This document shows positions 19,162 through 34,240 of a stretch of 64,000 bases of DNA, in pieces (position 1 is the first letter of the stretch; every line of letters begins with the position of its first letter). Source of the DNA: Candidatus Poribacteria bacterium (GTDB lineage: Bacteria > Poribacteria > WGA-4E > UBA9662); assembly GCA_036339735.1 (NCBI GenBank), contig JAYZAL010000088.1:56286-120285 (forward strand), given 5' to 3'. A model generated the notes under the pieces. It did no database searches. It was given only the letters and a program-made list of their open reading frames with translations, and was not told where the DNA came from. Both the position numbers and the translations under genes were made by a program.

Positions 19162-20241
19162 TTAACATAATCCGAGTTCGCGTCTGACAACATCTACACC
19201 AGCTACCATATTAGTTAACTTTTTCCTCGCAGCCCAACGTGCTGTTTGGCTTAATCCACAATCAGGAGCAAAAGACAATTTTTCCGCTGGTGCATAAGCC
19301 AAGCATCTACGTACTCGGTCAGCAATGTCTGATACGGTTTCTATATAGTAGCTTTTTACATCGATAATACCGACAGCTACATCTTTTACCTTGGCTATTG
19401 AACTAATAATATCCAGCTCAGAAAATTCACGGCTAGCCATTTCCAAGTGTATTTCATTTACATCCATTTCTAGAAAATGAGGGAACATTGGCTTATATTG
19501 GCGCAATCCAACAGCCCTTCCCTTATAGTTTCCAAAACAAAGATGAATCGAGAGTCTAACCTTCCCAGAAACAGGTGCTACTGTTCGGTTGAAAATATCA
19601 ACCAACCGAATTGGATCCTCTCGGTGTGCGTAACAACTCATAGATGGCTCGTCAACGGTAAGTTCTTGACAGCCGGCATTCACTAAATTTACTATCTCTT
19701 GTTGGACAATAGGTATGAGTGCTTCAGTGATGGCGTACCGATCGATATAGTCTGAGTTTGGTAATAATCGACCACTCAGCGTATATGGACCTGGTACGGA
19801 GGCCTTAAGAATGGGTGTAGTATCTAGATGTGCAACTGACTGTTTCAGTTTTTTGAAATCAGATAAGGTTCCAAGACCTTTGGGTGCTGATAGCTGACCG
19901 ACAATTTGATGTTTACCTCTTTGGTCGTGAGCAGGAGGTCCAAAAAGGCGGGATGTAGTCGACTCCATTTTAATGCCTTGTAGAAAACCATAAAATGAGA
20001 GATTAAAATCTAGTCGACTCTGCTCACCATCTGTGATCATATCTAAACCGGCTCTCAATTGATCTTGAACTACGGTTGTAACCGCATCACTTTGCAATTC
20101 AGCTAAATCTTCTGAGCCAAACTGATCTAGGTTTTGTGCTGAAAACTCTAACCATCCTGGCAATGGGTAGCTACCAATAACGGTAGTTTGCAAGGGTTTT
20201 CGTGGAAATTGATTAATGTCATATTTTTTCATTTTGCTCAA
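19162..20241 (-). CDS. cobalamin-independent methionine synthase II family protein (MetE C-terminal-like, short form)
   Basis: 359 aa. VIGSYP..GWL N-terminal motif, IHLCFGNY zinc-ligand region and CGL near the C-terminus, typical of the Meth_synt_2 family. Confidence 0.75.
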   Translation of the reverse strand: MSKMKKYDINQFPRKPLQTTVIGSYPLPGWLEFSAQNLDQFGSEDLAELQSDAVTTVVQDQLRAGLDMITDGEQSRLDFNLSFYGFLQGIKMESTTSRLFGPPAHDQRGKHQIVGQLSAPKGLGTLSDFKKLKQSVAHLDTTPILKASVPGPYTLSGRLLPNSDYIDRYAITEALIPIVQQEIVNLVNAGCQELTVDEPSMSCYAHREDPIRLVDIFNRTVAPVSGKVRLSIHLCFGNYKGRAVGLRQYKPMFPHFLEMDVNEIHLEMASREFSELDIISSIAKVKDVAVGIIDVKSYYIETVSDIADRVRRCLAYAPAEKLSFAPDCGLSQTARWAARKKLTNMVAGVDVVRRELGLC

Positions 20242-20254
20242 TCAAGACTAATTT

Positions 20255-20812
20255 TTAGGTGTTTTCCCAAGGTGATGGCAAGGCCGCGGTTAACGTAAAA
20301 GTTGATTTTGCTAGTTCATCTAATCTTTCGTTGATCTTCTCTGACTGTACAAACATTTGTGGCGTCCGGTCATTACCAAAATCATCCCCAGTAGCGTAAA
20401 CAAATCGAGGATTAATTAAGCAACGAAAATCAAGCATCAGACTATTAGCAATACTCATTACCGACATATAACTAGAATGACCACCTGCAGCACAGGCGAA
20501 CCCAACAACTTTTTGACTCCACCTGCGGCCAGTTAATTCGATCATATTCTTGGCAGCAGAGTTAATGTCGTAGTTATAAATTGGTACAGTTAAGATAATT
20601 GCCCGAGCTTGTTCGATACTTTCTTGCAGAAACTGCACATGTGGATTTTCAGATGCACCGCTTGTGCCGCATAGTGGGGCTGGGTGTTTCCGTAGATCAA
20701 CCAAAGGTGACTCTGCTCCCAAATGGGATAGTTTTTCACTTAATTCTTTAGCTAGCACATAAGACCGACTTTGCGGATGAAGCGAACAACTAATAATAGT
20801 AATATTCATCAC
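20255..20812 (-). CDS. NAD(P)H-dependent FMN reductase (flavodoxin-like fold)
   Basis: 185 aa. N-terminal ITIISCSLHPQSRS flavodoxin-like phosphate-binding loop and PIYNYDI motif. Confidence 0.7.
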   Translation of the reverse strand: MMNITIISCSLHPQSRSYVLAKELSEKLSHLGAESPLVDLRKHPAPLCGTSGASENPHVQFLQESIEQARAIILTVPIYNYDINSAAKNMIELTGRRWSQKVVGFACAAGGHSSYMSVMSIANSLMLDFRCLINPRFVYATGDDFGNDRTPQMFVQSEKINERLDELAKSTFTLTAALPSPWENT

Positions 20813-20835
20813 TCTATGATACTCTTAATTTTTTT

Positions 20836-22671
20836 CTAATTGAATATTTGGTTAAGTTCTGGATGATTCTCCACTATTTGATCAACTCTTTGGTTAACTG
20901 ATTTTGATTCTATAAGTGGAGGTGCATTGTGGGGCTTGAAACGAGCATCAATCACTAATGGCCCTTTCGTTCCCCAGTGCTTATCTATTATGAATGAACT
21001 GGCGCCATAAATATCGGTAGCAGGATTAGAACGTGTGAATGTCAGCCACAGAAAATTTGACCAATCATCTACACAAAATTCTATATCATCTACAAGTACG
21101 ACTAATGGAAGACTAGACCATCGACGTGGTTCAATAGCAGAACATAGACTCTCAACTTGACCTTTTGCTATTTCATAATTTTCAGTAAATCTTGGTGCTC
21201 CCACAGCACATATGCCAGGTATAACGATCTTTGAATGATTAAAAGGTGAAGCTAACTGTTGTGGGATTTCAGTTGCTAAGTCCCTAATTTTTGAGCCGGC
21301 CGCAGCAATCACGACCTTAGAGCCGAGATTTAGCTCAGGGGTAGAGTAATCTAAGGTATCTATAGTCGTTTGGGTTTGAAAGTGAAGATCTCGACTCAAA
21401 TCAACTCGCTCTAATAAATGAACAAAAAAAGATTGGGTACATTGCGTTGACAGGTCAGAATTATCTTCTTGGGCTACGATAAACAAATACTTAGCTAGGC
21501 TACATTGATTGAATCCTAAAATTGCGTTAGCTTGGGTCAATAGTTCCATTGGTAATCGTTGTTGATAAGGCACATACCGCTCACTACCAATGGCGAGTAG
21601 CAATGGATGTACCCCTGCTTCATCAACAGCGTTTAGTTCTTTTACACCGGGTATTTCAACTGGTACCATAGGTTTGGTAATTTCGTGTATTAAATGACCA
21701 AAAGTGCTGTCTTCTTGTGGTGGACGACCAACGACGGTAAACGGCCAAATAGCATTTGGCCGATGGAAAACCTTTTCGACCTTCATATAAGGAAATTCGT
21801 GAGTTAGGCTATAATAACCCAGATGATCTCCAAAGGGGCCTTCTGGTTTGGTTTTTTGGGGATCAATCGTTCCAACCAGACAGAAGTCAGCGTCAGCTAA
21901 AATCGGGTACTCGTTCCAACGAGTATAACGTACATTACGATCAGCCATCATACCAGCAAAGACAATTTCAGATAAGCCTTCTGGTAAGGGCATTACGGCA
22001 GCCAAAGTGTGGGCAGGGGGGCCACCAACAAAAATACATACTTTCAAAGGTTGCTTTTTCTTGATGGCTTTGGCGTGATGTATACCAATACCTCTATGAA
22101 TCTGGTAGTGAAGCCCAACTTCTTCATTGTATCGGTAGTCATTACCCGACAGCTGTACCCGATACATACCTAGATTTGTATTAAATAAACCTCCCTTTTC
22201 TGGATCTTCGGTCAAAACCTGAGGCAAGGTGATGAAAGCACCGCCATCCATTGGCCAACTAATAATTTGTGGGAGTTGGGATACCGTTGTCTGGCTGGCC
22301 AATACTGGGGCTAAACGAGTCGGTATCGGTAAGGATCGTAAACCTGCGGTAGATAACGGAAACAGATTCTTCAGATCGGAAAAAACACTCGCCGGTCTGG
22401 CTTTGAATCGGACCGCAGTTTTTACTGGAGAAAGGCTCTTTCTAAAAATGTATCGGCTGCGTTCGATCGTACCAAACAAGTTGGATGTAGCACGGAACGG
22501 TGTACCAATCACTTTCTCAAAAAAGAGCGCAGGTCCACCAACTTTGTAAACTCGACGGGTGAGTTCAGCCATCTCTAGATTGGGGGAGATTGGTTCTGTT
22601 ACCCGAATCAATTGGTTTGTTTTATCTAAATCTCGGATGCAGTCTTCGGTACATCGATAGGCTTTGGTCAC
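20836..22671 (-). CDS. UbiD-family (prFMN-dependent) decarboxylase with C-terminal extension
   Basis: 611 aa. The N-terminal region matches 3-octaprenyl-4-hydroxybenzoate carboxy-lyase-family proteins (GGPALFFEKV, WPMDGGAFITLP, FGDHLGYYS). Confidence 0.75.
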   Translation of the reverse strand: MTKAYRCTEDCIRDLDKTNQLIRVTEPISPNLEMAELTRRVYKVGGPALFFEKVIGTPFRATSNLFGTIERSRYIFRKSLSPVKTAVRFKARPASVFSDLKNLFPLSTAGLRSLPIPTRLAPVLASQTTVSQLPQIISWPMDGGAFITLPQVLTEDPEKGGLFNTNLGMYRVQLSGNDYRYNEEVGLHYQIHRGIGIHHAKAIKKKQPLKVCIFVGGPPAHTLAAVMPLPEGLSEIVFAGMMADRNVRYTRWNEYPILADADFCLVGTIDPQKTKPEGPFGDHLGYYSLTHEFPYMKVEKVFHRPNAIWPFTVVGRPPQEDSTFGHLIHEITKPMVPVEIPGVKELNAVDEAGVHPLLLAIGSERYVPYQQRLPMELLTQANAILGFNQCSLAKYLFIVAQEDNSDLSTQCTQSFFVHLLERVDLSRDLHFQTQTTIDTLDYSTPELNLGSKVVIAAAGSKIRDLATEIPQQLASPFNHSKIVIPGICAVGAPRFTENYEIAKGQVESLCSAIEPRRWSSLPLVVLVDDIEFCVDDWSNFLWLTFTRSNPATDIYGASSFIIDKHWGTKGPLVIDARFKPHNAPPLIESKSVNQRVDQIVENHPELNQIFN

Positions 22672-22695
22672 TCTTCTGGGTCGTTCAACTTGTTG

Positions 22696-22974
22696 CTAAC
22701 AACCCCCTCCCATAGCCGGCAAAAAATGTACTTCTGAGTTAGGTCCGATAGTTGATCGCATACCTCTGTCGATCAACACACCATCAACATAGACACCAAT
22801 ATAAGGGCTAATACGTTCAATACCATCATCGTGGTGGCATAGCCGATCTTTCACACCAGGGAACTCCGCTTCCATATTGTCCAATAATTCTCGTATCGTT
22901 GTTCCCGTAATTTCAACTTGACTTTTTTCGTTAGTCAAATCACGCATCAAGGAAGGAATAGAAACAATGGCCAA
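22696..22974 (-). CDS. MoaD/ThiS-family ubiquitin-like sulfur-carrier protein
   Basis: 92 aa beta-grasp-like sequence ending ...FLPAMGGGC. The glycine-rich C-terminus is typical of the family, with one extra Cys after the Gly run. Confidence 0.55.
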   Translation of the reverse strand: MAIVSIPSLMRDLTNEKSQVEITGTTIRELLDNMEAEFPGVKDRLCHHDDGIERISPYIGVYVDGVLIDRGMRSTIGPNSEVHFLPAMGGGC

Positions 22975-23058
22975 AACTTAACCCATAGTTGAAGTGTTCG
23001 GATAATTTTCCCAATCTATAAACCAAAGGTAATCAATAATCGCAATAGAGAGGGGTCT

Positions 23059-25299
23059 CTAAATTTTATCTAGAGCTTTAAGAACTACACCCGGGTTCAT
23101 CGGCAAATCAGTCATTCGAACACCAATGGCGCGCGAAACTGCATTGGCAATAGCTGCTAAGGGGGGTACCAATGGTACTTCACCAACGCCACGCACTCCA
23201 AATGGATGACCAGGGTTCGGTACTTCGACCAAAACAGTATCAATCATCGGAGTATCGTAGCAAGTCGGCATCCGATAGTCAAGAAAGCTAGAGTTTTTCA
23301 TTTCTCCATTTTCACCAAAAACGTACTCTTCACTCAAAGCCCAACCAATTCCTTGTACCACTCCACCCTGCATCTGTCCTTCGACGTAACTAGGGTGGAT
23401 AGCAGTCCCAACGTCTTGCACGGCCGTATAGCGTAAAATTTCAACTTTTCCTGTTTCTTCATCAACTTCTACGTCCACAATATGTGTACCGAAACCACCA
23501 CCAGCTCCACCAGTAGATTCAGTAACAGAACCAACAACCGGAGCACATATTTTTGCCGCTTCCTTGAAATCACAGCTCTTATTACTGCTCGAGAAGACCC
23601 CATCTGCGAATTCTACTTGATCCGCTTCCCAATGATCTGCCATTTGATCTATCATCTGGGCAATAACATCTTCTGCTGCTCGGATTGCGACTAAACCTGT
23701 AGCATGAGTAGTTCGACTGCCTCCAGTCACACCAGTCTCTCCGATAGTATTAGTATCAACTACTGCTGGTCGCACATCTTCCGACGCAATTCCTAAAACC
23801 TCCGCGGCTTGCATCGCAATTGAGGCACGAGAACCACCGATATCCGTCGACCCCTCGAGTAGCATAATGGTCCCATCTCCATTAACGGTTAGATTAACGC
23901 TTGACCGACCTGCCCCATTTCCCCAATACCCAGACGCAATACCGCGACCTTGTCGCTTAAGAATATCAATCTCACTTTGGTAGTGTTTGTGTTTTTGTGC
24001 TGCTGAAACAGTTTCTAGGTAACCTATTTTTCCGTGAATGGGTCCAGTCGGTCGACGGTCACCTTCTTTAGCTCCATTGAATAGACGAAATTCTAGAGGG
24101 TCAATCTCTAATTTTTGACAAATTTCGTCTATTACACACTCTGCAGCAAATGATCCATTTGGGGCACCAGGAGCTCGATAAGCCGATGAACGTGGTTTGT
24201 TAACGACAACATCAAATCCATCTATCCTTAAGTTGGGTATCTTATAAGCTGTAAACATACAGTTAGCACCAGCTCCAACAGCAGATCCTGGGTAGGCACC
24301 AGCTTCGTAGAATAGGTCAGCCTCAGCTGCGGTAATACGTCCATCTTTTGTTGCTCCGATCTTGACTCGAATCAAAGTCGCAGGAGCTGGCCCAGTCCCT
24401 TCAAATACTTCTTCCCGACTCATGGTGATTTTGACCGGAAATCCAGTTCTAATAGAGATCAGCGCTGCTAGTGGGCTAACATAAACACGTATTTTACCAC
24501 CGAATCCTCCACCAATCTCTAGTGGAACTACCTTGATTTTACTAGCAGGATGTCGCAGAATTTCAGCCACTTGATCACGGACAGCAAATGCCCCCTGCGT
24601 ACTAGTCCAAACTGTCAATTCTCCATCAGGATTATATTTTGCCGTTGCCGTATGGGGTTCAATATATCCTTGATGTACGGTTTGAGTTGTAAATGTTCTT
24701 TCAACAATTACCCCATTAGTCTCGGCCTGTGAGAAACCTAGACTCAAGTCGCCATTTTCGTGTCGAAAATGAGAGGCAATGTTGGTAGGTGTTTCTGTTT
24801 TCTCACCAAGTGTGTTTGTTGTCAAAGACTGGTGAAGTACTACTGCATCTGGGGCAATTGCTTCTTCTACGGAAGTTACCGATGCAAGTATTTCATATTC
24901 AACGTCAATTAGATCAACCGCTTCTTGGGCTGTGTGAATATCAGTAGCTGCAACGACTGCAATCGGCTGTCCCTTATAAAAAACTTTTTCACTAGCCAAC
25001 ACATTGTCGCTCAGGAAACGCATATTTTCTGGTATCTCACCAAATTCTGCGATTCTTTCTTCCACAATAGGTAAGTCACTACCAGTGATAATATCCTTAA
25101 CTCCTGGATATTCCAGAGCCTGACTAACATCTAGAGAAATTATCTTGGCATGTGCGTGAGGGCTACGTAGGACTTTTCCATATAACATATCCGGAAAATT
25201 CAGATCGGCTCCATACTTTGCCCTACCAGTTACTTTGTCTACCCCATCATGACGAATAGGTCGACTACCAATAACTTTGTAACCATTTCCATTTTTCAT
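23059..25299 (-). CDS. xanthine dehydrogenase/CO dehydrogenase-family molybdopterin-binding large subunit (CoxL-like)
   Basis: 746 aa. Ald_Xan_dh_C/C2 hallmarks (GGGFGGK, the SAYRAPGAP active-site loop in the AYRGAGR position of form II CoxL, and the GHPFGVRGVGE C-terminus). Confidence 0.9.
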   Translation of the reverse strand: MKNGNGYKVIGSRPIRHDGVDKVTGRAKYGADLNFPDMLYGKVLRSPHAHAKIISLDVSQALEYPGVKDIITGSDLPIVEERIAEFGEIPENMRFLSDNVLASEKVFYKGQPIAVVAATDIHTAQEAVDLIDVEYEILASVTSVEEAIAPDAVVLHQSLTTNTLGEKTETPTNIASHFRHENGDLSLGFSQAETNGVIVERTFTTQTVHQGYIEPHTATAKYNPDGELTVWTSTQGAFAVRDQVAEILRHPASKIKVVPLEIGGGFGGKIRVYVSPLAALISIRTGFPVKITMSREEVFEGTGPAPATLIRVKIGATKDGRITAAEADLFYEAGAYPGSAVGAGANCMFTAYKIPNLRIDGFDVVVNKPRSSAYRAPGAPNGSFAAECVIDEICQKLEIDPLEFRLFNGAKEGDRRPTGPIHGKIGYLETVSAAQKHKHYQSEIDILKRQGRGIASGYWGNGAGRSSVNLTVNGDGTIMLLEGSTDIGGSRASIAMQAAEVLGIASEDVRPAVVDTNTIGETGVTGGSRTTHATGLVAIRAAEDVIAQMIDQMADHWEADQVEFADGVFSSSNKSCDFKEAAKICAPVVGSVTESTGGAGGGFGTHIVDVEVDEETGKVEILRYTAVQDVGTAIHPSYVEGQMQGGVVQGIGWALSEEYVFGENGEMKNSSFLDYRMPTCYDTPMIDTVLVEVPNPGHPFGVRGVGEVPLVPPLAAIANAVSRAIGVRMTDLPMNPGVVLKALDKI

Positions 25300-25781
25300 T
25301 ATAGGTCGTCCTCTCCGTTATCTGCAGCATCCAAGACAGCACGCACAATCTTGTCATATCCGGTGCAACGACAGAGGTTTCCAGCCAACCAGAACCGAAC
25401 TTCCTTCTCAGTTGGATTGGGGTTACTCTCAAGTAAAGCTTTTGCATTCATAATGAACCCTGGTGTACAAATACCGCATTGCAAGGCGGCATGCTCCAAG
25501 AATTTTTGCTGCAGTGGGTGTAACCCTTCAGGTGAAGCAACACCTTCGATAGTTTCGATTTTATTTCCCTCGGCCTCTACACCTAACATACAACATGAGT
25601 TAACAGGTCGACCTTCGACCATTATGGTGCACGCACCACAGTTCCCATTGTTACATCCTTCTTTAGCACCTGTTAAATCAAGATCGTCTCGAAGAACTTC
25701 GAGCATACTCTGTCGGGGCTCGCATAAAAACTCAACACTGTCACCGTTAATTTGCGTCTGTACATGAACTTTTCTTGACAT
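25299..25781 (-). CDS. (2Fe-2S)-binding small subunit of molybdenum hydroxylase (CoxS-like)
   Basis: 160 aa. Two [2Fe-2S] cysteine clusters: CNNGNCGAC (plant-ferredoxin type) and CGICTPG...CRC. Confidence 0.9.
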   Translation of the reverse strand: MSRKVHVQTQINGDSVEFLCEPRQSMLEVLRDDLDLTGAKEGCNNGNCGACTIMVEGRPVNSCCMLGVEAEGNKIETIEGVASPEGLHPLQQKFLEHAALQCGICTPGFIMNAKALLESNPNPTEKEVRFWLAGNLCRCTGYDKIVRAVLDAADNGEDDL

Positions 25782-26653
25782 TAAGCAGTCTCCTTAATTC
25801 GGCTGATGGCACCATTCAACGCCCGCTTAGTCAATACACCAACCAAATGTTTCCTCTGTTCTGCACTACCTCTCATATCGCTAATTGGACGAGCGACGTC
25901 TTGTGCTGCAGAACATGCTGTTTGAATCGATTCCTCGCTAACCGGTTGTCCAGCTAATATGCTACCAGCTTCCTCCGCAAAGAGTGGCGTCGCAGCAACT
26001 GCTCCGAGAGCAATACGTGCTGAAACGAAGGTTCTGTGATCGGAGGTCAACTCTACCGAGGCTCCTACACCAACTACAGCAATATCCATTTCATTACGAG
26101 GAATAAAGCGAAGGTAGAAACTACTAGAGTTGTCAGCTGGTTTAGGTAAAACTAACTTGACCAATAGTTCATTACTAGATAGTGCCGTCTGTCCAGGCCC
26201 AGTACAGAATTCTTCCACTGCGACTTTTCGATCTCCGTTTGGTCCTTGAATAACACAGCTCGCTCCAAGTGCAATCAGTGCTGGGATAGAATCTGCAGCC
26301 GGCGACGCATTACACAAGTTGCCTCCAATGCTGGCCCGACTTTGAATTTGCACTCCACCGATGATACTCGTGGAATCAACTAGAGCTGGAAATAATCTTT
26401 GCACATCCTCATTGCCATAAACTTGATAGCAAGGAACGGAAGCCCCGATCTGCAAATCCCCATTGTAAGAAATCTCGTTGAATTCGGGAATTTTTTTGAT
26501 ATCGACTAATAAGTCAACTTGGCGACGGTTTTCTCGAACCTGAACAATCAGGTCTGTTCCACCACTCAAAATTCGAGCTTGATCTCCGTGCTTATCTAAG
26601 AGGCCTATGGCTTCCCCCAAACTTTCGGCTGCCACATATTCGAATGCTTGCAA
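25781..26653 (-). CDS. FAD-binding medium subunit of molybdenum hydroxylase (CoxM-like)
   Basis: 290 aa. ILSGGTDL FAD-binding motif and GGNLCNASP motif of FAD_binding_5/CO_deh_flav_C. Start and stop codons abut the neighbours, giving M-S-L order. Confidence 0.85.
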   Translation of the reverse strand: MQAFEYVAAESLGEAIGLLDKHGDQARILSGGTDLIVQVRENRRQVDLLVDIKKIPEFNEISYNGDLQIGASVPCYQVYGNEDVQRLFPALVDSTSIIGGVQIQSRASIGGNLCNASPAADSIPALIALGASCVIQGPNGDRKVAVEEFCTGPGQTALSSNELLVKLVLPKPADNSSSFYLRFIPRNEMDIAVVGVGASVELTSDHRTFVSARIALGAVAATPLFAEEAGSILAGQPVSEESIQTACSAAQDVARPISDMRGSAEQRKHLVGVLTKRALNGAISRIKETA

Positions 26654-26834
26654 ATCGAACTCCTTTAATCTGTTTCAGTTATGTACCCAAATCTATAACA
26701 CACTAAACTAATTAAGGTCGTTTAAGACCCAGAGAGACTATCATCATTCTCTCACATCAAGGTTTATCAAATCGAAAAGAGCGTGCAAGACACACACCTC
26801 TGATTTTCGATTGTATCTGATACCCAAATAAATG

Positions 26835-27347
26835 TCAACGGCTAAAGCCACCAAGCAATAGGTCAATATAGGACTCGCCGACGGGGATTATAGAACAAAT
26901 TTTTAATCGTTGTTTTATCTGATTATGCTCATTTGTAGCTGTTTGGATTGAATGATGTTGTATCACTGTTTCAAGCTCGATGAACTGCCCCAAATCTTTA
27001 ACAAAGTCAAGATGAATGCGAGTATTGTCAAGAAGCCAGAGATATCGTTTCTTTACTACTACTCCTCTTACGCCTAGGGTTTTCTTCAAGATTTGTTTAA
27101 GAATTGAGGGGTTCGAGACAGGCATTACTTGATAATTACTAAGCCGGGAAGATTGGTCGTTAGCTCTATGGTAACCTATCAATTCCGAGCAATCATCCAT
27201 TTGCCGTAACTTCAAACGGCCAGAAGAAACTCGGAAATATGTGTCAATTTGGTGTAACTCGGATTCGAATCGAGCTGACATCTTCTCTAATTCGTTAATG
27301 CAACCTTCATAGTCGTTAAGGGGGACTTTCAGCTCCAGGTTTTTCAC
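26835..27347 (-). CDS. CYTH-domain protein (class IV adenylyl cyclase / triphosphate tunnel metalloenzyme-like)
   Basis: 170 aa. N-terminal NLELKVPL (ExK-like) and alternating charged beta-strands typical of the CYTH/CyaB fold. Confidence 0.55.
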   Translation of the reverse strand: MKNLELKVPLNDYEGCINELEKMSARFESELHQIDTYFRVSSGRLKLRQMDDCSELIGYHRANDQSSRLSNYQVMPVSNPSILKQILKKTLGVRGVVVKKRYLWLLDNTRIHLDFVKDLGQFIELETVIQHHSIQTATNEHNQIKQRLKICSIIPVGESYIDLLLGGFSR

Positions 27348-29397: not shown

Positions 29398-30465
29398 CTA
29401 GATGGTAACTATCTTTCCTGTTATGACTGATTCGGCTTCCTTATAGCATAAAGCCAGAGCATCCCTAGCTTTTGTACCTGACAAGAAACCAGAATCGGCC
29501 GATTGTCCACTATTGAGGTGTGAAATCGCATAATCGATTTCGTTAGTGAAAGCATCTACCGGATCAACCTCTCCCAAATCTGGATAGTATACATCACCCG
29601 TATTTTGTATCAGCGTCAATGGTTGCGAAACACCTTGGCCACCTAAAGTAGACGATGAAAAAGTCAACGTTGCTTTCTCGAAGAAAATTTCAAAACCGTG
29701 ACTGAATGAACGCCCTTTTGCTGAAATCCCGCCCGACCAAGTAGAAACTGCTAACTGTGGTCTTTCGGGATAAATATATTGGGTTGAAAGGTAGTCCACA
29801 AACTGAGTATTCTTTCCATCTTCAGTTGTGGCAATTTTACCCTGAGAAAAAACTGCTGAAGGCATTCCACACAACAGCTGAATAAAGTGAGTATCGTGGA
29901 TATGTAAATCTATACCGGGTGCCCCACTTTTGGTGATCTCTTGCAGCGTTCGCTCCGACGGTTGGCTGATTAATCGACGTAAATGAAGTCCCAACAAATC
30001 TCCGTGTTCGCCACTTTGAACTGCTTTTAGAGCATAGTTGAATTCGGGGAAAAACGGCAAAACATGGGCAACCATAAAGTGTTTTTCACTCTGTTCGCTA
30101 ACTGCTACCATTTCGTTTGCAGACTGGATATCAACTTCAATGGGTTTCTCACATAGAACATGCTTACCAGCTTTTAGGGCTGCGATAGTTACTTCTTTGT
30201 GATATTGAGTGGGCAAACAGATGTCCACCAAATCTACGTTGGGATCGGCCAGTAAGTCATCAATCTGGTCGTATGTTGATAACCCTGACAAGTCTTCTAT
30301 TCCACCACGAGGTCCAAAGTTACCTTGAATACTACTCCAGTCCCCAGATAATTTTTTGGGATCCCGTGTACAGATAGCGGTTACTTGACATCCCTCAACT
30401 TTTTTGGCCCCATAATAGTGAATCATACCCATAAAACCAAGTCCAATAATGCCAATTCGAGTCAT
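29398..30465 (-). CDS. Gfo/Idh/MocA family NAD(P)-dependent oxidoreductase
   Basis: Start chosen at the internal Met (MTRIGIIGLGFMG, Rossmann GxGxxG) at 30465, which avoids overlapping the upstream gene. The track ORF extends to 30525. Confidence 0.8.
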   Translation of the reverse strand: MTRIGIIGLGFMGMIHYYGAKKVEGCQVTAICTRDPKKLSGDWSSIQGNFGPRGGIEDLSGLSTYDQIDDLLADPNVDLVDICLPTQYHKEVTIAALKAGKHVLCEKPIEVDIQSANEMVAVSEQSEKHFMVAHVLPFFPEFNYALKAVQSGEHGDLLGLHLRRLISQPSERTLQEITKSGAPGIDLHIHDTHFIQLLCGMPSAVFSQGKIATTEDGKNTQFVDYLSTQYIYPERPQLAVSTWSGGISAKGRSFSHGFEIFFEKATLTFSSSTLGGQGVSQPLTLIQNTGDVYYPDLGEVDPVDAFTNEIDYAISHLNSGQSADSGFLSGTKARDALALCYKEAESVITGKIVTI

Positions 30466-30502
30466 ATTTTTATCTCCAAATCTGATATTTTTTTTCAGGC
30501 AA

Positions 30503-31309
30503 TTAAAAAGGGAATGTACCAGCATAGCCTAGCTGATCCAGAGTAAATTGTGGATTACTAACGAATCTTATGCCTGGAAACATCGGATTTTGCTGATAGT
30601 GTAGAACAATATTGGCACGAGGTTGATTCGGCTCGTCGCTCCCAATTTTAGCTCCTTGATGTGGAATGTGGCTATAGAAAATGACAGCATCTCCAGCCAT
30701 AGGGTGCAGATCAACATATGATTGGTTGTCACACCAGGCCTGAAAAGGATTTTTTCGATCGTCTGTATAGTGGGCATGTGGACGTACGTCAGGTGGAATC
30801 GATTTAGAAAAAAAATCGCTCAAAAAACGCAATCGGCCCTTTTGTGGAGGGTTGTCTGTTAGATAAAAAGTCGTATTCATACACAACCCGATAACTGGTT
30901 GCTTAGATTCTGCTCGTTCTTCTTGGTACCAATAATCATAAAAATCCATATGCCACTCCTGTAGATAAGACCGTGGGTTCACATGAGCCCGTAGACTGCG
31001 GAGTTGACACTGTTTACCCAGAATAGATTTCAGGTACGGCGAGACACTCTCGTGAGCAATCAGTTCTTTTGACTTTTCAGGTTCTATCTCCAGTAATTTT
31101 TCAAAAGCTACATTACCAACACTATTGTCGATTTCATACCTTTCTTCTTGATATAAAGAATAGAGAATTTTTTGCCATTTGGTGACCAGACCAGTACTTA
31201 GAGCATTTCTAATCAACAGAAAACCGTGCCGGTTTAAATAATCTAATTTTTCTTCAAATATACTGTTCCCGTCCACGCTAATCTCCCTTTTAATGTTTTC
31301 ACTAATCAA
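30503..31309 (-). CDS. phytanoyl-CoA dioxygenase (PhyH) family Fe(II)/2OG dioxygenase
   Basis: 268 aa. WHMDFYD (HxD) and FYSHIPHQG (distal His) motifs. Confidence 0.6.
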   Translation of the reverse strand: MISENIKREISVDGNSIFEEKLDYLNRHGFLLIRNALSTGLVTKWQKILYSLYQEERYEIDNSVGNVAFEKLLEIEPEKSKELIAHESVSPYLKSILGKQCQLRSLRAHVNPRSYLQEWHMDFYDYWYQEERAESKQPVIGLCMNTTFYLTDNPPQKGRLRFLSDFFSKSIPPDVRPHAHYTDDRKNPFQAWCDNQSYVDLHPMAGDAVIFYSHIPHQGAKIGSDEPNQPRANIVLHYQQNPMFPGIRFVSNPQFTLDQLGYAGTFPF

Positions 31310-31372
31310 GTTAGAGGCCAGTTTAAGTGGCCGAACCCTTGGTGTTAATTAGCTTAGTTCAGAATTAGTAAG

Positions 31373-32149
31373 TTATTCCGGTGTTACATACGCTGATGAG
31401 ATTCCACCATCAACTACAAAATCTGCTCCATTGACATAACTTGAGTCATCACTAGCAAGAAACAGAGCGGCTTTTGCCATTTCTTCGGCTAAACCAAATC
31501 GCCCCATGGGAACATGAACCAGGCGCCGCTGTTTTTTTTCGTCGGTGTTTAAAAAGTCCATCAATAGTTTGGTATGAAGTGGTCCTGGACAGAGAGCATT
31601 ACATCGGATATTTTCCTTAGCATGAACAATCGCTAATTCTCGAGTCATCGCTAGAACCCCGCCTTTACTGGCAGTGTAAGCTAGCTGAGGTGTAGCAGCC
31701 CCCATCAGTGCCACAAAAGATGCGGTGTTGATTACACATCCTCCACCACTTCGTTGAATAGCAGGTATTCCAAATTTACAGCCTAGGAAGACTCCCTTTA
31801 GGTTGACATCCATCGTCAGATCCCAAATTTCTTCTGGAGTCTGCATTGCATTGCCGTCGTCTGGGTGCATTATGCCAGCATTGTTGAATAAAATGTGAAG
31901 GCCACCAAATCTTTCTTCAGCAATACTAATCATGTCCTTACAGTCATCAGACTTCGACACATCCGCATGGCAATAAATCACCTCAGAACTGATCTGTTTT
32001 ACTAAATCAATTGTCTCGTGTCCCTCTTCAGTATTTACATCTACTGCGACAATGCTTGCCCCTTCTTGCGCGAATAGCAATGCAGTCGCTCGACCAATAC
32101 CTCCGGAGGCTCCTGTTATTAGTGCAACTCGACCGTCTAATTTTCCCAT
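31373..32149 (-). CDS. SDR-family short-chain dehydrogenase/reductase
   Basis: 258 aa. TGASGGIGRA cofactor motif, NNAG, and the catalytic YTASK (YxxxK). Confidence 0.9.
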   Translation of the reverse strand: MGKLDGRVALITGASGGIGRATALLFAQEGASIVAVDVNTEEGHETIDLVKQISSEVIYCHADVSKSDDCKDMISIAEERFGGLHILFNNAGIMHPDDGNAMQTPEEIWDLTMDVNLKGVFLGCKFGIPAIQRSGGGCVINTASFVALMGAATPQLAYTASKGGVLAMTRELAIVHAKENIRCNALCPGPLHTKLLMDFLNTDEKKQRRLVHVPMGRFGLAEEMAKAALFLASDDSSYVNGADFVVDGGISSAYVTPE

Positions 32150-32151
32150 TT

Positions 32152-32874
32152 TTATGATTTTTCTTTATTGTTTTGGGGGCGGCAGTGCTGGACAAAATCT
32201 TCGAACAGCCGCCTCTGAATCAAATCATTAGGTTTACTCATTTCTGGGTGCCATTGTACAGCGATTCGCCAAATTTTACCATCCATCTCCACAGCTTCGA
32301 TCGTTCCATCTGGGGCCCAAGCAACAACGGATAATGAATCAGCTACAAAATCTAGCGCCTGATGGTGTAAAGACGGAGCTGAAAAATTCGTACTCTGAAC
32401 TATATCCGCTAACCGAGAATTAGTATCAACGGCAATCGAATGATTAGTTGGTTTACGTGGTGGCAGTCGGTGCTTAACCGATTCACCAACAATATCAGGC
32501 AAATTCTGAATCAATGTTCCTCCTAGAGCTACATTTAATATTTGGATGCCGCGACATATTCCGAACAATGGTTTTTCGGATTCAATCACTTTGTGTGTTA
32601 AAGAAAGTTCATGGCGGTCTCGCTCTAAATCCACACCGTAAACCAACTTGTGTGGTGGTTGATTGTAATGGCTTGGGCATATATCTCCGCCACCGATTAA
32701 CAACACGCCATCTACCGATTTTACTTGCTCTACTTCATCCCCTATTGGTGGTAACATGAGTGGTAGGCCACCAGCATCTGCAATAGATTTAATATAATCA
32801 TGTGGTATTGAATACCGCTGATCCTGATTGAGTCCGTACATGGTCAGCCCAATCACCGGCCTGTCAATTTTCAT
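32152..32874 (-). CDS. gamma-glutamyl-gamma-aminobutyrate hydrolase family protein (PuuD-like class I glutamine amidotransferase / peptidase C26)
   Basis: Start chosen at the Met at 32874 (MKIDRPVIGLTMYG), which abuts the upstream stop at 32876. GICRGIQILNVALGG nucleophile elbow and a C-terminal His (VQWHPE). Confidence 0.75.
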   Translation of the reverse strand: MKIDRPVIGLTMYGLNQDQRYSIPHDYIKSIADAGGLPLMLPPIGDEVEQVKSVDGVLLIGGGDICPSHYNQPPHKLVYGVDLERDRHELSLTHKVIESEKPLFGICRGIQILNVALGGTLIQNLPDIVGESVKHRLPPRKPTNHSIAVDTNSRLADIVQSTNFSAPSLHHQALDFVADSLSVVAWAPDGTIEAVEMDGKIWRIAVQWHPEMSKPNDLIQRRLFEDFVQHCRPQNNKEKS

Positions 32875-32875
32875 T

Positions 32876-34240
32876 TCAGATCCTTTCAAAATACCGTTTA
32901 CGTTCCCAATCAGTGACGGCATTCTCGTATTCACTCTGTTCATTTTGATAAAAATGGACGTAATGATCATGCACAGGTTCGCCTAAAGTACGCCGTACAA
33001 AGTCACTGTTGGAAAAAACTTCTATAGCCTCTCTAAACGTCGTGGGTACAGCTTTCGTTGTTTCCAGATCGTAGGCATTTCCGACGAACTCATCTGGCGG
33101 ATTTAGTTGCCTTTGTATGCCGTCTAGGCCAGAAGCAAGCGAGGCTGCCAAGGCCAGATACGGGTTGCAGTCTGCCCCCGGTATACGACATTCAATCCGC
33201 AAGGAGTCACCACTACCAACCACTCGGAATCCCGCAGTTCTGTTATCATGACTCCAAGCGAGTGTAGTTGGTGCCCAACTACCATGTTGGTATCTTTTGT
33301 AAGAGTTTACAGTCGGAGCATAAAAAGGCATAAATTCTGGTGCATGCTCGATCCATCCTGCAAGGAATTTCAGGAAAAGATCAGAACATTTGATCCGTCC
33401 AAATACTTGATTGCCAGCAAAGACATTTCGTCCATTTGACCACAAACTCAGATGAATATGGCAACTCGATCCTGCCTGATCCTGTTCTTGTTTTGCCATA
33501 AAAGTTACGCTAATGTCGTTCTGATCGGCTAGTTCTTTGGCACATTGCTTGATTAATAGGTGGCGGTCCGCCATTTCGCCAATTTCAGCATATGCCACAT
33601 TAATTTCATGTTGTCCTAGCCCCCACTCACCTTTAGTAGATTCAACGGGAATGCCGGATCGTTTCAATTGTCGACGTAATTCCCCGTGATAACTCTCTCG
33701 GCGTGCACCTTGTAAGATGTGATAGTCCTCTAAGTACCATCCGCTTGGTGTTAAATTTACAAAATTTTGTTGATGTGCTTGTTCGAAGCTTTGCCGAAAT
33801 AAATAGTATTCTAATTCTGTTGCGGCTTTAGCCTGGTAACCTTGTTCAGAGGTCAATTGAATCTGATTCTTCAGGATGCTACGTGGTAGCTGAGGGACCA
33901 ACTGATGTGATGACTCATCAACAATGTCGCAAATAACAACCGCTGTTCGATCTGCCCAAGACAGAACCCGTAAGGTAGAAATATCTGGTTGCATATGAAA
34001 ATCACCGTAACCCTCGTCCCAGTTAGCGAAAGTATATCCTTCTACCGGTTCCATTTCCATGTCAACAGTTGCCAGATAATTACAACCATGTGTTCCTTTC
34101 TGAGCCACAGAATTCAGAAAAAAATCGGCGTCAAATCGTTTTCCCAAGAGTGTGCCATAAAGGCCCGGAAACGCGACAACAACTGTATCTACCGATCCAG
34201 TATCTACTTTCTCCCTAAGTTGCTCAATGGATATAATCAT
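32876..34240 (-). CDS. glutamine synthetase-family gamma-glutamyl ligase (PuuA/GlnA3-like)
   Basis: 454 aa. GS catalytic-domain motifs (GSSCHIHLSLW, NSYKRY, and a C-terminal region resembling the GS ATP/NH3 site) without a canonical GSI N-terminus, as in gamma-glutamylpolyamine synthetases. Confidence 0.8.
   Translation of the reverse strand: MIISIEQLREKVDTGSVDTVVVAFPGLYGTLLGKRFDADFFLNSVAQKGTHGCNYLATVDMEMEPVEGYTFANWDEGYGDFHMQPDISTLRVLSWADRTAVVICDIVDESSHQLVPQLPRSILKNQIQLTSEQGYQAKAATELEYYLFRQSFEQAHQQNFVNLTPSGWYLEDYHILQGARRESYHGELRRQLKRSGIPVESTKGEWGLGQHEINVAYAEIGEMADRHLLIKQCAKELADQNDISVTFMAKQEQDQAGSSCHIHLSLWSNGRNVFAGNQVFGRIKCSDLFLKFLAGWIEHAPEFMPFYAPTVNSYKRYQHGSWAPTTLAWSHDNRTAGFRVVGSGDSLRIECRIPGADCNPYLALAASLASGLDGIQRQLNPPDEFVGNAYDLETTKAVPTTFREAIEVFSNSDFVRRTLGEPVHDHYVHFYQNEQSEYENAVTDWERKRYFERI

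What the first reader, a model, noticed from the sequence alone, without database searches (positions are those of the whole stretch)
20255..26653. coxM-S-L-ordered molybdenum hydroxylase with a non-canonical active-site loop, flanked by a MoaD-like protein, a UbiD-family decarboxylase and an FMN reductase
The gene order FAD subunit, then 2Fe-2S subunit, then Mo subunit, with abutting start and stop codons, is the CO-dehydrogenase/form-II-like arrangement. The large subunit has SAYRAPGAP where form II enzymes carry AYRGAGR, so the substrate is unknown. Directly downstream sit a MoaD/ThiS-like carrier ending GGGC, a 611-aa UbiD-family decarboxylase and an NAD(P)H-FMN reductase, but no UbiX. This could be a pathway for hydroxylation and decarboxylation of an aromatic or N-heterocyclic acid.
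Basis: partly seen in the sequence, partly recalled or inferred. Interest (0 to 1): 0.5.

Follow-up and report, generated by a model that had tools for sequence, protein, structure and literature searches.

The report
Molybdenum hydroxylase cassette with sulfur-carrier partner
A marine Poribacteria genome carries a three-subunit molybdenum hydroxylase of unknown substrate. Its one conserved partner across at least seven phyla is a small CysO-like sulfur-carrier protein, while the neighbouring UbiD decarboxylase and FMN reductase are bystanders found only in this lineage.

Summary
All six genes are real and lie on the minus strand. They encode an FAD subunit, a 2Fe-2S subunit, a Mo subunit, a ThiS/MoaD-like protein ending GGGC, a 611-aa UbiD and an FMN reductase.

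The hydroxylation-plus-decarboxylation pathway idea is not supported. UbiD and the FMN reductase sit next to the enzyme only in close relatives (the carrier at least 70% identical). The ~610-aa UbiD family is a stand-alone gene in three unrelated contexts in other lineages.

The SAYRAPGAP loop is unusual only when compared with CoxL. AYRAPG is invariant in this enzyme family and also occurs in 6-hydroxypseudooxynicotine dehydrogenase.

The conserved unit is a four-gene cassette, FAD–FeS–Mo–small carrier. The Mo subunit lies directly upstream of the carrier gene in 67 of 80 species loci, spanning Poribacteria, Chloroflexota, Latescibacterota, Gemmatimonadota, Planctomycetota and Bacillota. The carrier resembles CysO most closely, in both sequence and predicted fold. 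No XdhC, MoeB, MoaE or JAMM gene recurs near the cassette.

My best reading is an enzyme of unknown substrate with a dedicated thiocarboxylate sulfur donor for maturing its molybdenum cofactor. This parallels the MoaD genes known beside tungsten aldehyde oxidoreductases. The carrier's role is inferred, not shown.

The parts
26810..26838 (-). Best sigma-70-like promoter match (TTGACA-17-TACAAT, 11 of 12) in the 181-nt gap upstream of the FAD-subunit gene. Possible cassette promoter.
   Evidence: The number of such sites in the region does not exceed shuffled controls, so this is only a lead.
25781..26653 (-). FAD-binding medium subunit (CoxM-like, 290 aa, TTG start). It lacks the [4Fe-4S] insertion of HcrB.
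   Evidence: Pfam FAD_binding_5 7e-46 and CO_deh_flav_C 3e-25. Best solved relative is the CO dehydrogenase medium chain 8uem_B at 1e-44. HcrB scores only 3e-14, and query residue 111 aligns to chain residue 152, so about 41 residues are missing.
25299..25781 (-). Small subunit with two [2Fe-2S] clusters (160 aa). Its ATG overlaps the FAD gene stop codon (TAATG).
   Evidence: Pfam Fer2_2 2e-32 and Fer2 4e-7. Cysteine motifs C43-x4-C48-x2-C51...C63 and C102-x2-C105...C137-x-C139 were read from the translation. Junction sequence.
23059..25299 (-). Molybdopterin-binding large subunit (746 aa). Gln235, Glu707, EIGGGFGGKI (261-270) and NKPRSSAYRAPGAP (367-380) are present. Its ATG overlaps the FeS gene stop codon (TAATG).
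   Evidence: Pfam Ald_Xan_dh_C, MoCoBD_1 and MoCoBD_2. Below all NCBIfam cut-offs. PDB ranking. Q235, E707 and the core R375-A376-P377 of the loop are invariant in 70 family members, and the flanking A373, Y374 and G378 are nearly invariant.
22696..22974 (-). CysO-like ThiS/MoaD-family sulfur-carrier protein (92 aa, TTG start). It has the conserved HFLPAxGG C-terminus followed by a one-residue Cys tail. It is the only accessory gene conserved with the enzyme.
   Evidence: Pfam ThiS 1e-7. The family profile matches A. orientalis CysO (4n6e_B) at 3e-18 and M. tuberculosis CysO (3dwg_C) at 2e-13. AlphaFold2 model pLDDT 84.6, and the Foldseek top hits are CysO with TM 0.84-0.86. The Mo subunit lies directly upstream in 67 of 80 species loci.
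20836..22671 (-). UbiD-family decarboxylase (611 aa) with a conserved ~150-aa C-terminal extension. It is a neighbour, not part of the conserved cassette.
   Evidence: Pfam UbiD_N, UbiD and UbiD_C cover residues 12-457. TIGR03701 scores 334 against a cut-off of 496. Homologues are 57-65% identical across phyla and stand-alone in the three loci examined. It lies next to the cassette only in L002 and L014-L016.
20255..20812 (-). NAD(P)H-dependent FMN-reductase-family flavoprotein (185 aa). It is a neighbour, not part of the conserved cassette.
   Evidence: Pfam FMN_red 6e-23. Found near the cassette only in L002 and L014-L016, and absent next to UbiD homologues in L011-L013.

Best explanation
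Window 26653-22696 (minus strand) is a self-contained four-gene cassette.

Three genes encode a xanthine-oxidase-family molybdo-iron-sulfur flavoprotein: a CoxM-like FAD subunit, a subunit with two [2Fe-2S] clusters, and a Mo subunit. The Mo subunit keeps the Gln235 and Glu707 catalytic pair. As in all members of this family (established knowledge), Mo(VI)=S abstracts hydride from a substrate carbon while the Glu-activated Mo-OH attacks it. Electrons then pass through the two [2Fe-2S] clusters to FAD and on to an external acceptor. The substrate is unknown. It could be an aldehyde, an N-heterocycle or an acyl-CoA aromatic, but it is not CO and probably not xanthine.

The fourth gene encodes a CysO-like beta-grasp sulfur carrier. 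I infer that its C-terminal Gly-Gly is exposed by removal of the terminal Cys. An E1-like MoeZ/MoeB enzyme encoded elsewhere would then adenylate it and convert it to a thiocarboxylate. The thiocarboxylate would supply sulfur for maturing this enzyme's molybdenum cofactor, either the dithiolene sulfurs or the terminal Mo=S.

The UbiD decarboxylase and FMN reductase downstream are lineage-specific neighbours with no demonstrated link.

Status of each step:
- Shown: gene content, conserved catalytic residues, cassette conservation, CysO-likeness, and non-conservation of UbiD and the FMN reductase.
- Inferred: thiocarboxylate formation and the role in cofactor maturation.

Sub-confidences: about 0.85 that the cassette is the unit and UbiD is unrelated, and about 0.45 for the carrier's role in cofactor sulfur supply.
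For: - Domains and catalytic residues.
- Carrier-centred survey: more than 586 species genomes encode a relative. Of the best 80 loci, 67 have the Mo subunit directly upstream (median gap 50 nt) and 5 more have FAD-FeS directly upstream. The loci span Poribacteria, Chloroflexota/Dehalococcoidia, Latescibacterota, Gemmatimonadota, Planctomycetota, Opitutales and Bacillota, and their flanking genes differ.
- Large-subunit-centred look-ups all show the carrier gene downstream: L001, L002, L094 and L095.
- CysO-likeness: profile E 3e-18 and 2e-13. Foldseek top three hits are CysO, ahead of SAMP1 and well ahead of canonical MoaD.
- The GG terminus is invariant, with variable tails after it.
- No XdhC, MoeB, MoaE, JAMM or desulfurase family recurs within about 6 kb in the 80 loci.
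- Precedent: MoaD genes strictly adjacent to tungsten aldehyde:ferredoxin oxidoreductase genes were proposed to make cofactor for that enzyme (PMC1779556; PMC2948915).
Against: - There is no experimental or expression evidence.
- The carrier's activating E1, its tail peptidase and any MoaE are not in the window or in any cassette flank, so the sulfur-transfer chain is inferred entirely by homology.
- CysO's characterised role is cysteine or thiosugar synthesis, not cofactor maturation.
- Thirteen of the 80 loci lack an adjacent Mo subunit. Five of these keep FAD-FeS-carrier, one keeps only the FAD subunit upstream, six are orphan carrier genes and one sits too near a contig end to judge. The link is therefore strong but not obligate.
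- The conservation could partly reflect the cassette moving between genomes as a unit rather than functional coupling.
Confidence: 0.6

Rival explanations
1. First reader's model. The Mo hydroxylase, UbiD decarboxylase and FMN reductase form one pathway that hydroxylates and decarboxylates an aromatic or N-heterocyclic acid, with the FMN reductase supporting prFMN supply.
For: - The genes are co-directional with gaps of 13-84 nt, and no terminator-like site was found on the minus strand between 26715 and 17773.
- The whole block is kept in L002 and L014-L016.
- The UbiD keeps the PEGPFGDHLGYY catalytic stretch.
- Bremerella cremea has an orphan carrier gene 1.2 kb from a 53%-identical UbiD homologue.
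Against: - The block is confined to one lineage, with the carrier at least 70% identical and the large subunit at least 77% identical.
- Sixty-three other cassette loci and L001, L006, L007, L009, L094 and L095 lack UbiD and the FMN reductase.
- UbiD homologues at 57-65% identity are stand-alone in unrelated contexts, without a Mo enzyme or an FMN reductase.
- The gene array continues in the same tight spacing into a MetE-like gene and YchF, so spacing alone is uninformative.
Confidence: 0.06
2. The carrier delivers sulfur to a metabolite rather than to the cofactor. Enzyme and carrier would together make or process a thio-compound, as CysO does with CysM or BexX, or QbsE/PdtH do in thioquinolobactin and PDTC synthesis.
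For: - The closest characterised relatives of the carrier donate sulfide to small-molecule intermediates.
- Variable tails after GG resemble QbsE-type precursors (the comparison with QbsE rests on my own knowledge).
Against: - No CysM, BexX, AMP-ligase, JAMM or E1 gene recurs near the cassette.
- To my knowledge, no xanthine-oxidase-family enzyme catalyses sulfur insertion into substrates.
Confidence: 0.12
3. The small protein is not a sulfur carrier. It is a ubiquitin-like structural subunit, an assembly chaperone or a protein modifier (SAMP/Urm1-like) acting on or with the enzyme.
For: - The best NCBIfam matches, both weak at 31.9 bits, are SAMP1 and archaeal MoaD.
- SAMP1 structures rank 4th to 8th by Foldseek.
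- Beta-grasp subunits without a sulfur role exist, for example TmoB (Table 1 of PMC1779556).
Against: - The invariant C-terminal Gly-Gly on a disordered tail (pLDDT below 50 for residues 90-92) is the hallmark of adenylation-activated carriers.
- Similarity to CysO is much stronger than to SAMP1.
Confidence: 0.12
4. The enzyme is a bona fide xanthine dehydrogenase, as KEGG-based annotation of Poribacteria suggests, or a form I/II CO dehydrogenase.
For: - Sources name homologues 'xanthine dehydrogenase family protein'.
- Burgsdorf et al. report a KEGG xanthine dehydrogenase annotation for the poribacterial CoxSML-like complex (PMC8941161).
- The gene order and the FAD subunit are Cox-like.
Against: - All XdhA, XdhB and PucD NCBIfam equivalogs are far below their cut-offs: 448 against 780, 431 against 916 and 345 against 784.
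- The CODH models are also far below: 280 against 991 and 289 against 950.
- The residue after GGGFGGK is Ile, not the Glu that binds xanthine in bovine XDH (this comparison is from my own knowledge and was not aligned here).
- The loop is AYRAPG, not VAYRCSFR or AYRGAGR.
Confidence: 0.05

Closest known systems
4-hydroxybenzoyl-CoA reductase HcrCAB (Thauera aromatica, 1rm6)
   Same: The alpha subunit is the closest solved relative of the large subunit (6e-96, 326 bits, aligned end to end). The Gln and Glu positions and the R-x-x-G loop are shared.
   Different: The gene order differs. The FAD subunit lacks the ~40-residue [4Fe-4S] insertion. The TIGR03194, TIGR03195 and TIGR03193 cut-offs are not met. 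The loop is AYRAPG rather than AMRGHG.
Aerobic CO dehydrogenase CoxMSL (forms I and II)
   Same: M-S-L gene order with overlapping stop and start codons, and the FAD subunit is closest to CoxM/CutM (1e-44 to 7e-38).
   Different: The active-site loop is AYRAPG, not VAYRCSFR or AYRGAGR. The CODH NCBIfam scores are less than a third of their cut-offs. No coxD, E, F or G genes are present.
6-hydroxypseudooxynicotine dehydrogenase (Agrobacterium tumefaciens S33, 7dqx)
   Same: Same three-subunit architecture and an identical AYRAPG loop.
   Different: Only 243 bits of overall similarity. No nicotine-pathway genes are nearby.
MoaD genes strictly adjacent to tungsten aldehyde:ferredoxin oxidoreductase genes (Iyer, Burroughs and Aravind 2006, PMC1779556)
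   Same: A ThiS/MoaD-family carrier gene is tightly and sporadically linked, across distant phyla, to one specific pterin-cofactor enzyme. This suggests enzyme-dedicated sulfur supply for the cofactor and a mobile cluster.
   Different: The partner here is a xanthine-oxidase-family Mo enzyme, not a tungsten AOR. The carrier is CysO-like rather than MoaD-like. No MoeB, MoaE or MoaA accompanies it.
CysO sulfur carrier (M. tuberculosis 3dwg; A. orientalis 4n6e)
   Same: Best match in both sequence and fold. It shares the N-terminal IP(S/T)(L/I)(M/L)R motif and the C-terminal LPAxxGG.
   Different: It is not next to cysM, mec or moeZ. About 63% of family members carry extra residues after GG.
XdhC/PaoD plus cysteine desulfurase (NifS4) system for Moco sulfuration and insertion
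   Same: It fills the role expected for an accessory gene in a bacterial xanthine-oxidase-family operon (review PMC13653126).
   Different: There is no XdhC-family gene in the window or recurring near the cassette. The accessory protein here is a beta-grasp carrier, which would imply different chemistry: a thiocarboxylate rather than a persulfide.
UbiD / futalosine-pathway decarboxylase (TIGR03701, SCO4490-type)
   Same: The downstream 611-aa protein has all three UbiD domains and the PEGPFGDHLGYY stretch.
   Different: It scores 334 against a cut-off of 496 for TIGR03701. It has an extra conserved C-terminal ~150 aa, there is no UbiX or UbiA nearby, and it is not part of the cassette.

Membership tests
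Xanthine oxidase / molybdenum hydroxylase family (three-subunit bacterial type) | Large subunit with Ald_Xan_dh_C, MoCoBD_1 and MoCoBD_2 domains | tested here: met
   E-values 7e-31, 1e-67 and 4e-57.
Xanthine oxidase / molybdenum hydroxylase family (three-subunit bacterial type) | Small subunit with two [2Fe-2S] binding motifs (Fer2 and Fer2_2) | tested here: met
   Pfam hits. All eight Cys were read in the translation.
Xanthine oxidase / molybdenum hydroxylase family (three-subunit bacterial type) | FAD subunit with FAD_binding_5 and CO_deh_flav_C domains | tested here: met
   E-values 7e-46 and 3e-25.
Xanthine oxidase / molybdenum hydroxylase family (three-subunit bacterial type) | Catalytic Glu near the C-terminus and Gln near the Mo=O | tested here: met
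   E707 aligns with the GVGE Glu of the D. gigas enzyme (Glu869 by my own knowledge). Q235 aligns with the O. carboxidovorans CoxL Gln (Q240 by my own knowledge). Both are invariant in 70 sequences.
Xanthine oxidase / molybdenum hydroxylase family (three-subunit bacterial type) | Bound Mo-molybdopterin (cytosine dinucleotide) with a cyanolysable Mo=S | not testable with these tools
   Requires purified protein.
Form I / form II aerobic CO dehydrogenase (CoxL) | Active-site loop VAYRCSFR (form I) or AYRGAGR (form II) | tested here: not met
   The loop is SAYRAPGAP. It aligns to the CoxL loops in 8uem and 1n5w. Core R-A-P is invariant and the flanking A, Y and G nearly so.
Form I / form II aerobic CO dehydrogenase (CoxL) | NCBIfam TIGR02416 / NF040766 cut-off | tested here: not met
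   280 against 991 and 289 against 950.
Xanthine dehydrogenase proper (XdhA / PucD / XdhB types) | NCBIfam equivalog cut-offs | tested here: not met
   448 against 780, 431 against 916, 345 against 784 and 255 against 850.
Xanthine dehydrogenase proper (XdhA / PucD / XdhB types) | Substrate-binding Glu after GGGFGGK and Arg880-equivalent (bovine numbering) | tested here: inconclusive
   The residue after GGGFGGK is Ile in 59 of 70 family members. The bovine reference residues were recalled from memory and not aligned here.
4-hydroxybenzoyl-CoA reductase | Beta subunit with a [4Fe-4S]-binding insertion | tested here: not met
   The FAD subunit is 290 aa. Alignment to 1rm6_B jumps from query residue 111 to chain residue 152. 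TIGR03195 matches in two stretches at 114 bits against a cut-off of 405.
4-hydroxybenzoyl-CoA reductase | Alpha-subunit equivalog score | tested here: not met
   467 against 995.
ThiS/MoaD/CysO sulfur-carrier proteins | Beta-grasp fold | tested here: met
   Pfam ThiS. AlphaFold2 model pLDDT 84.6. Foldseek finds CysO, SAMP1 and MoaD, with TM up to 0.86.
ThiS/MoaD/CysO sulfur-carrier proteins | C-terminal Gly-Gly on a flexible tail | tested here: met
   G90 and G91 are invariant in 26 sequences. In this protein they are followed by one Cys, and 52 of 140 relatives end exactly at GG.
ThiS/MoaD/CysO sulfur-carrier proteins | Activation by an E1-like adenylyltransferase and formation of a thiocarboxylate | not testable with these tools
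   No ThiF/MoeB gene in the window or recurring in the flanks.
Canonical MoaD (MPT synthase small subunit) | Match to bacterial MoaD models or structures and association with MoaE | tested here: not met
   No TIGR01682 hit, only archaeal MoaD/SAMP1 at 31.9 bits against cut-offs of 49.5 and 60. E. coli MoaD ranks 18th by fold with E 0.02. No MoaE nearby.
UbiD family (prFMN-dependent decarboxylases) | UbiD_N, UbiD and UbiD_C domains and the TIGR00148 cut-off | tested here: met
   Pfam hits. TIGR00148 scores 245.3 against 244.85, which is marginal.
UbiD family (prFMN-dependent decarboxylases) | Partner UbiX prenyltransferase | tested here: not met
   Absent from the 64-kb window.
Futalosine-pathway menaquinone decarboxylase (TIGR03701) | Equivalog cut-off | tested here: not met
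   334 against 496.

The most novel reading that the evidence does not exclude
The CysO-like protein is a dedicated thiocarboxylate sulfide donor. It would install or repair the terminal Mo=S (sulfido) ligand of the adjacent xanthine-oxidase-family enzyme, independently of XdhC.

That would be a second bacterial route for Moco sulfuration. It could also be the first in vivo repair system for desulfo enzymes in bacteria. A 2026 review states that no such repair has been identified (PMC13653126).

The chemistry is plausible, because free sulfide under reducing conditions re-sulfurates desulfo enzymes in vitro (my own knowledge; the review describes the same for formate dehydrogenase).
Probability: 0.2. 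Interest if true: 0.75.

Novelty: new variant of a known kind. Interest (0 to 1): 0.42.

Why it matters
CoxL-like (COG1529) enzymes are among the most expanded gene families in sponge symbionts and marine Chloroflexota, and more than half have no assigned substrate (PMC8941161).

This work defines one coherent clade of them. The clade has invariant AYRAPG, Gln235 and Glu707. It is found in hundreds of species across at least seven phyla, and it always travels with a CysO-like sulfur carrier and never with an XdhC-type chaperone gene nearby.

If the carrier feeds sulfur to the cofactor, this extends the idea of an enzyme-dedicated MoaD from tungsten aldehyde oxidoreductases to the xanthine-oxidase family. 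It would also offer a tractable test of how, or whether, bacteria sulfurate or repair Moco without XdhC.

There is a practical warning too. Tight co-directional spacing in this compact genome (UbiD, FMN reductase, MetE-like, YchF) should not be read as a pathway.

Tried and rejected
1. Moco or other riboswitch upstream of the cassette. Rfam gave no hit at gathering thresholds over the whole window. Across 22600-27000 the only hit was a chance-level PYLIS match at E 0.16.

2. Operon boundaries from promoter and terminator scans. The counts do not exceed shuffled controls. Only the 11-of-12 promoter-like site upstream of the FAD gene is worth noting.

3. Rosetta-stone fusions of the carrier. Three long relatives are fused to an alpha/beta hydrolase, a VTT domain or a methyltransferase. 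These are inconsistent and are probably read-through or chance.

4. Substrate inference from neighbours. Dehalococcoidia share the order CoA-transferase III, cassette, PIG-L, DHDPS, alpha/beta hydrolase, enoyl-CoA hydratase, MR/MLE enolase. This hints at an aldehyde or acyl-CoA substrate. It is confined to one phylum and absent in Poribacteria, so I did not adopt it.

5. Searching the flanks of the 80 loci for XdhC, MoeB, MoaE, JAMM, MocA or desulfurase. No such family was among the recurrent clusters I scanned.

6. Literature searches for a MoaD/ThiS-like gene linked to xanthine-oxidase-family operons. No paper was found, only the link to tungsten AOR.

7. A functional link between UbiD and the FMN reductase. 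It is not seen outside the lineage.

It was rerun with alignment A2.

9. I did not build a formal phylogeny with characterised large subunits, because their sequences are not retrievable here. HMM and phmmer scores served as a proxy.

Full report
**Observation**

The window is AT-rich (about 40% GC). Contig names and source labels mark it as a marine Candidatus Poribacteria genome recovered many times in Tara Oceans assemblies.

All six genes of the finding are on the minus strand at the stated coordinates:
- FAD subunit, 26653-25781
- 2Fe-2S subunit, 25781-25299
- Mo subunit, 25299-23059
- ThiS/MoaD-like protein, 22974-22696
- UbiD, 22671-20836
- FMN reductase, 20812-20255

Pfam confirms each domain architecture with strong E-values. 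The two subunit junctions are TAATG overlaps preceded by GGAG-like sites. SAYRAPGAP is at residues 372-380 of the Mo subunit, and the small protein ends LPAMGGGC. No UbiX-like gene was found among the ORFs scanned across the 64-kb window.

**The enzyme**

The large subunit falls below the curated cut-off of every NCBIfam equivalog:
- 4-hydroxybenzoyl-CoA reductase alpha: 467 against 995
- XdhA: 448 against 780 and 431 against 916
- glyceraldehyde dehydrogenase alpha: 376 against 790
- PucD: 345 against 784
- CODH: 280 against 991

Among solved structures the closest is Thauera HcrA (6e-96, 326 bits). Next come mycobacterial CoxL (248 bits), 6-hydroxypseudooxynicotine dehydrogenase (243), the D. 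gigas aldehyde oxidoreductase (241) and O. carboxidovorans CoxL (232). Mammalian XDH reaches about 170 bits. Its own family members score above 1000 bits at 61-64% identity. It therefore belongs to no characterised clade.

The FAD subunit is CoxM-like (1e-44). It lacks the roughly 40-residue [4Fe-4S] insertion of HcrB. The small subunit carries both canonical [2Fe-2S] cysteine motifs.

In the residue-level alignments, E707 matches the catalytic Glu of the D. gigas enzyme (GVGE) and Q235 matches the CoxL Gln.

The loop is not exotic. 7dqx has the identical AYRAPG, the D. gigas enzyme has AFRGYGAPQ, HcrA has AMRGHG, and only the CoxLs have the AY(A/R)CSFR type. Across 70 family members from several phyla, Q235, E707 and EIGGGFGGK are invariant or nearly so. 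The loop reads NKP[KR][TS]xAYRAPG[AS][PT], with R-A-P invariant and the flanking A, Y and G nearly invariant.

The phrase 'non-canonical active-site loop' overstates the case.

**Which neighbours matter**

I tested conservation from two directions.

Starting from large-subunit homologues:
- A sponge-type Poribacteria chromosome (64% identity, L001) keeps FAD-FeS-Mo-ThiS but has no UbiD or FMN reductase.
- Contigs labelled Chromatiales (L094) and Tectomicrobia (L095) do the same.
- Only a 77%-identical relative (L002) keeps the whole block DUF815-CYTH-M-S-L-ThiS-UbiD-FMNred-MetE.

Starting from the small protein:
- A scan of one genome per species found at least 586 genomes encoding a relative.
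- In the best 80 loci, the Mo subunit lies directly upstream in 67 (median gap 50 nt).
- FAD-FeS lies directly upstream without a Mo gene in 5, the FAD gene alone in 1, and none of the three in 7, one of which sits at a contig end.
- These loci come from Poribacteria, Dehalococcoidia and other Chloroflexota, Latescibacterota, Gemmatimonadota, Planctomycetota, Opitutales, Symbiobacteriaceae and other Bacillota. Their outer flanks differ between phyla.
- UbiD and the FMN reductase appear only in L014-L016, where the carrier is 70-93% identical and the lineage is the same as the window's.

The ~610-aa UbiD family is 57-65% identical across Bacteroidota, Acidobacteriota, Calditrichota and Methylomirabilales. 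It sits alone in unrelated neighbourhoods in Pontibacter, a Calditrichota genome and the nearest outgroup at 65% identity.

The conserved unit is therefore the four-gene cassette. The proposed link between hydroxylation and decarboxylation is not supported.

**The small protein**

Its family has an invariant N-terminal motif MA.V.IPSLM and a C-terminal SEVHFL, followed by nearly invariant P-A, then x-G-G.

A profile of the family hits Amycolatopsis CysO (4n6e_B, 3e-18) and M. tuberculosis CysO (3dwg_C, 2e-13). These are far ahead of a Thermus MoaD-related protein (2e-8). Canonical E. coli MoaD and ThiS are not found at all.

An AlphaFold2 model (pLDDT 84.6, disordered last three residues) matches CysO best by Foldseek (TM 0.84-0.86). 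SAMP1 comes next and canonical MoaD ranks about 18th.

The family is large, with 647 clusters at 50% identity and E at or below 1e-10. Of the 140 relatives with a recognisable C-terminus, about 37% end exactly at GG. The rest carry tails of one to dozens of residues, including the single Cys seen here. This implies proteolytic exposure of the Gly-Gly, as is known for some carrier precursors (my own knowledge).

Clustering every ORF in the 80 loci and Pfam-scanning the recurrent clusters found no XdhC, MoeB/ThiF, MoaE, JAMM, MocA or cysteine desulfurase. The recurrent families were all lineage-specific:
- Dehalococcoidia: CoA-transferase III, PIG-L, DHDPS, alpha/beta hydrolase, enoyl-CoA hydratase and MR/MLE.
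- Latescibacterota, Gemmatimonadota and Planctomycetota: Wzz, Poly_export, AcrB and MatE.
- Sponge Poribacteria: an ECF sigma factor.

**Mechanism**

Shown:
- A complete xanthine-oxidase-family electron-transfer chain with intact catalytic residues.
- A co-conserved carrier of CysO type.

Inferred from established knowledge of the families:
- The enzyme hydroxylates an activated C-H (or an aldehyde) using water, passing electrons from Mo through the two [2Fe-2S] clusters to FAD.
- The carrier is adenylated by an E1-like enzyme encoded elsewhere and converted to a thiocarboxylate.

My best-supported proposal is that the carrier is an enzyme-dedicated sulfur donor for cofactor maturation. The precedent is the set of MoaD genes 'strictly adjacent' to tungsten aldehyde:ferredoxin oxidoreductase genes. 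Those were proposed to synthesise pterin cofactor for that enzyme and to form a mobile cluster (PMC1779556; confirmed for archaea in PMC2948915).

Two sub-models cannot be separated here. The carrier could supply the dithiolene sulfurs, or it could supply the terminal Mo=S. The second is the more novel reading. [quoted passage not shown] No XdhC gene accompanies this cassette in any lineage examined.

Evidence against over-reading this:
- Thirteen of the 80 loci lack an adjacent Mo subunit.
- CysO's known roles are in metabolite sulfuration.
- The cassette may simply move between genomes as a unit.

**Comparison, novelty and score**

The enzyme is a new, uncharacterised member of a known family. 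This is consistent with the report that more than half of CoxL-like proteins in sponge symbionts have unknown substrates, and that the poribacterial ones are annotated as xanthine dehydrogenase by KEGG (PMC8941161).

In the searchable literature I found no description of a CysO-like carrier coupled to a xanthine-oxidase-family enzyme. It is best classed as a new variant of a known kind of association.

The original pathway hypothesis is ordinary and unsupported. The cassette is moderately interesting and experimentally testable. Overall interest is about 0.4.

Noticed in passing
window 20836-22671 (-); L011-L013; alignment A3: The 611-aa UbiD belongs to a distinct subfamily. Members are 57-65% identical across Bacteroidota, Acidobacteriota, Calditrichota, Methylomirabilales and Poribacteria, and stand-alone in the three other contexts examined. 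The ~150-aa C-terminal extension is strongly conserved (DD..F...NFLW[VL]TFTRSNP..D..G....KHW....[VI]DAR.K.H.APPL) and no Pfam model covers it. It scores below the futalosine-pathway decarboxylase cut-off (334 against 496). Its function is unknown.
   Followed up: partly
L062 6001-6261 (+) and 7502-9358 (-) (Bremerella cremea JCM 17758): A cultured planctomycete has an orphan copy of the CysO-like carrier with no Mo-enzyme genes within 6 kb. The copy lies 1.2 kb from a 618-aa UbiD homologue (53% identical) on the opposite strand. This is a second lineage where the carrier and this UbiD subfamily are close together. It may be chance and remains unexplained.
   Followed up: partly
L026, L033, L047, L053, L085 (Gemmatimonadota, Opitutales, Latescibacterota): Cassette variants read FAD-FeS-carrier, with the Mo-subunit gene missing from between FeS and the carrier (about a 100-nt gap). 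Relatives with the same flanks (AcrB/MatE upstream, Wzz/Poly_export downstream) keep it. The remaining three ORFs look intact, which suggests a large subunit encoded elsewhere.
   Followed up: partly
L019, L023, L032, L074 (MoL-MoL-carrier); L009, L010 (MoL-carrier-MoL): Tandem or flanking duplicate large-subunit genes share one FAD/FeS pair and one carrier gene.
   Followed up: no
L018-L093, Dehalococcoidia/Chloroflexota loci: Phylum-specific extended synteny: CoA-transferase III, cassette, PIG-L deacetylase, DHDPS-family aldolase, alpha/beta hydrolase, enoyl-CoA hydratase, MR/MLE enolase. It hints at an aldehyde or acyl-CoA substrate in that phylum. In L073 and L091 the carrier stays with PIG-L and DHDPS without the enzyme.
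   Followed up: partly
window 10904-11191 (-) and 9817-10890 (-): A lone EutN/CcmL-type microcompartment vertex protein gene (2.5e-27) sits next to a class II aldolase-like gene. No shell hexamer genes were seen in the window.
   Followed up: no
window 6738-8690 (-), 39367-41241 (+), 50934-52868 (-): Three paralogous large DUF6785+DUF6784 proteins (E about 1e-147 to 1e-158) lie within 64 kb. A fourth homologue follows the MetE-like gene in relative L002.
   Followed up: no
window 29398-34240 (-): Upstream co-directional genes resemble a gamma-glutamylation amine-catabolism set. They are a glutamine-synthetase-like gene (Gln-synt_C), a Peptidase_C26/GATase, an SDR, a PhyH-like dioxygenase and a GFO/IDH/MocA oxidoreductase, followed by RimK, DUF815 and CYTH. 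Such pathways need an aldehyde-oxidising step, but the link to the Mo enzyme is speculative and was seen only in this lineage.
   Followed up: no
window 19162-20241 (-): A 359-aa protein consisting only of the MetE catalytic domain (Meth_synt_2) scores below all methionine-synthase equivalog cut-offs. It starts 13 nt after the FMN reductase gene ends and is conserved there in the same lineage.
   Followed up: no
window 22001-26000: The cassette region has the highest GC content in the window (0.445-0.455, against about 0.36-0.42 elsewhere). This is compatible with acquisition as a unit or with coding constraints.
   Followed up: no
carrier family (P0121-P0154, P0275-P0423): About 63% of family members have extra residues after the Gly-Gly, from one residue (Cys in the window's lineage; Ala or Val elsewhere) to more than 30. 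This implies a processing peptidase that is not encoded near the cassette.
   Followed up: partly
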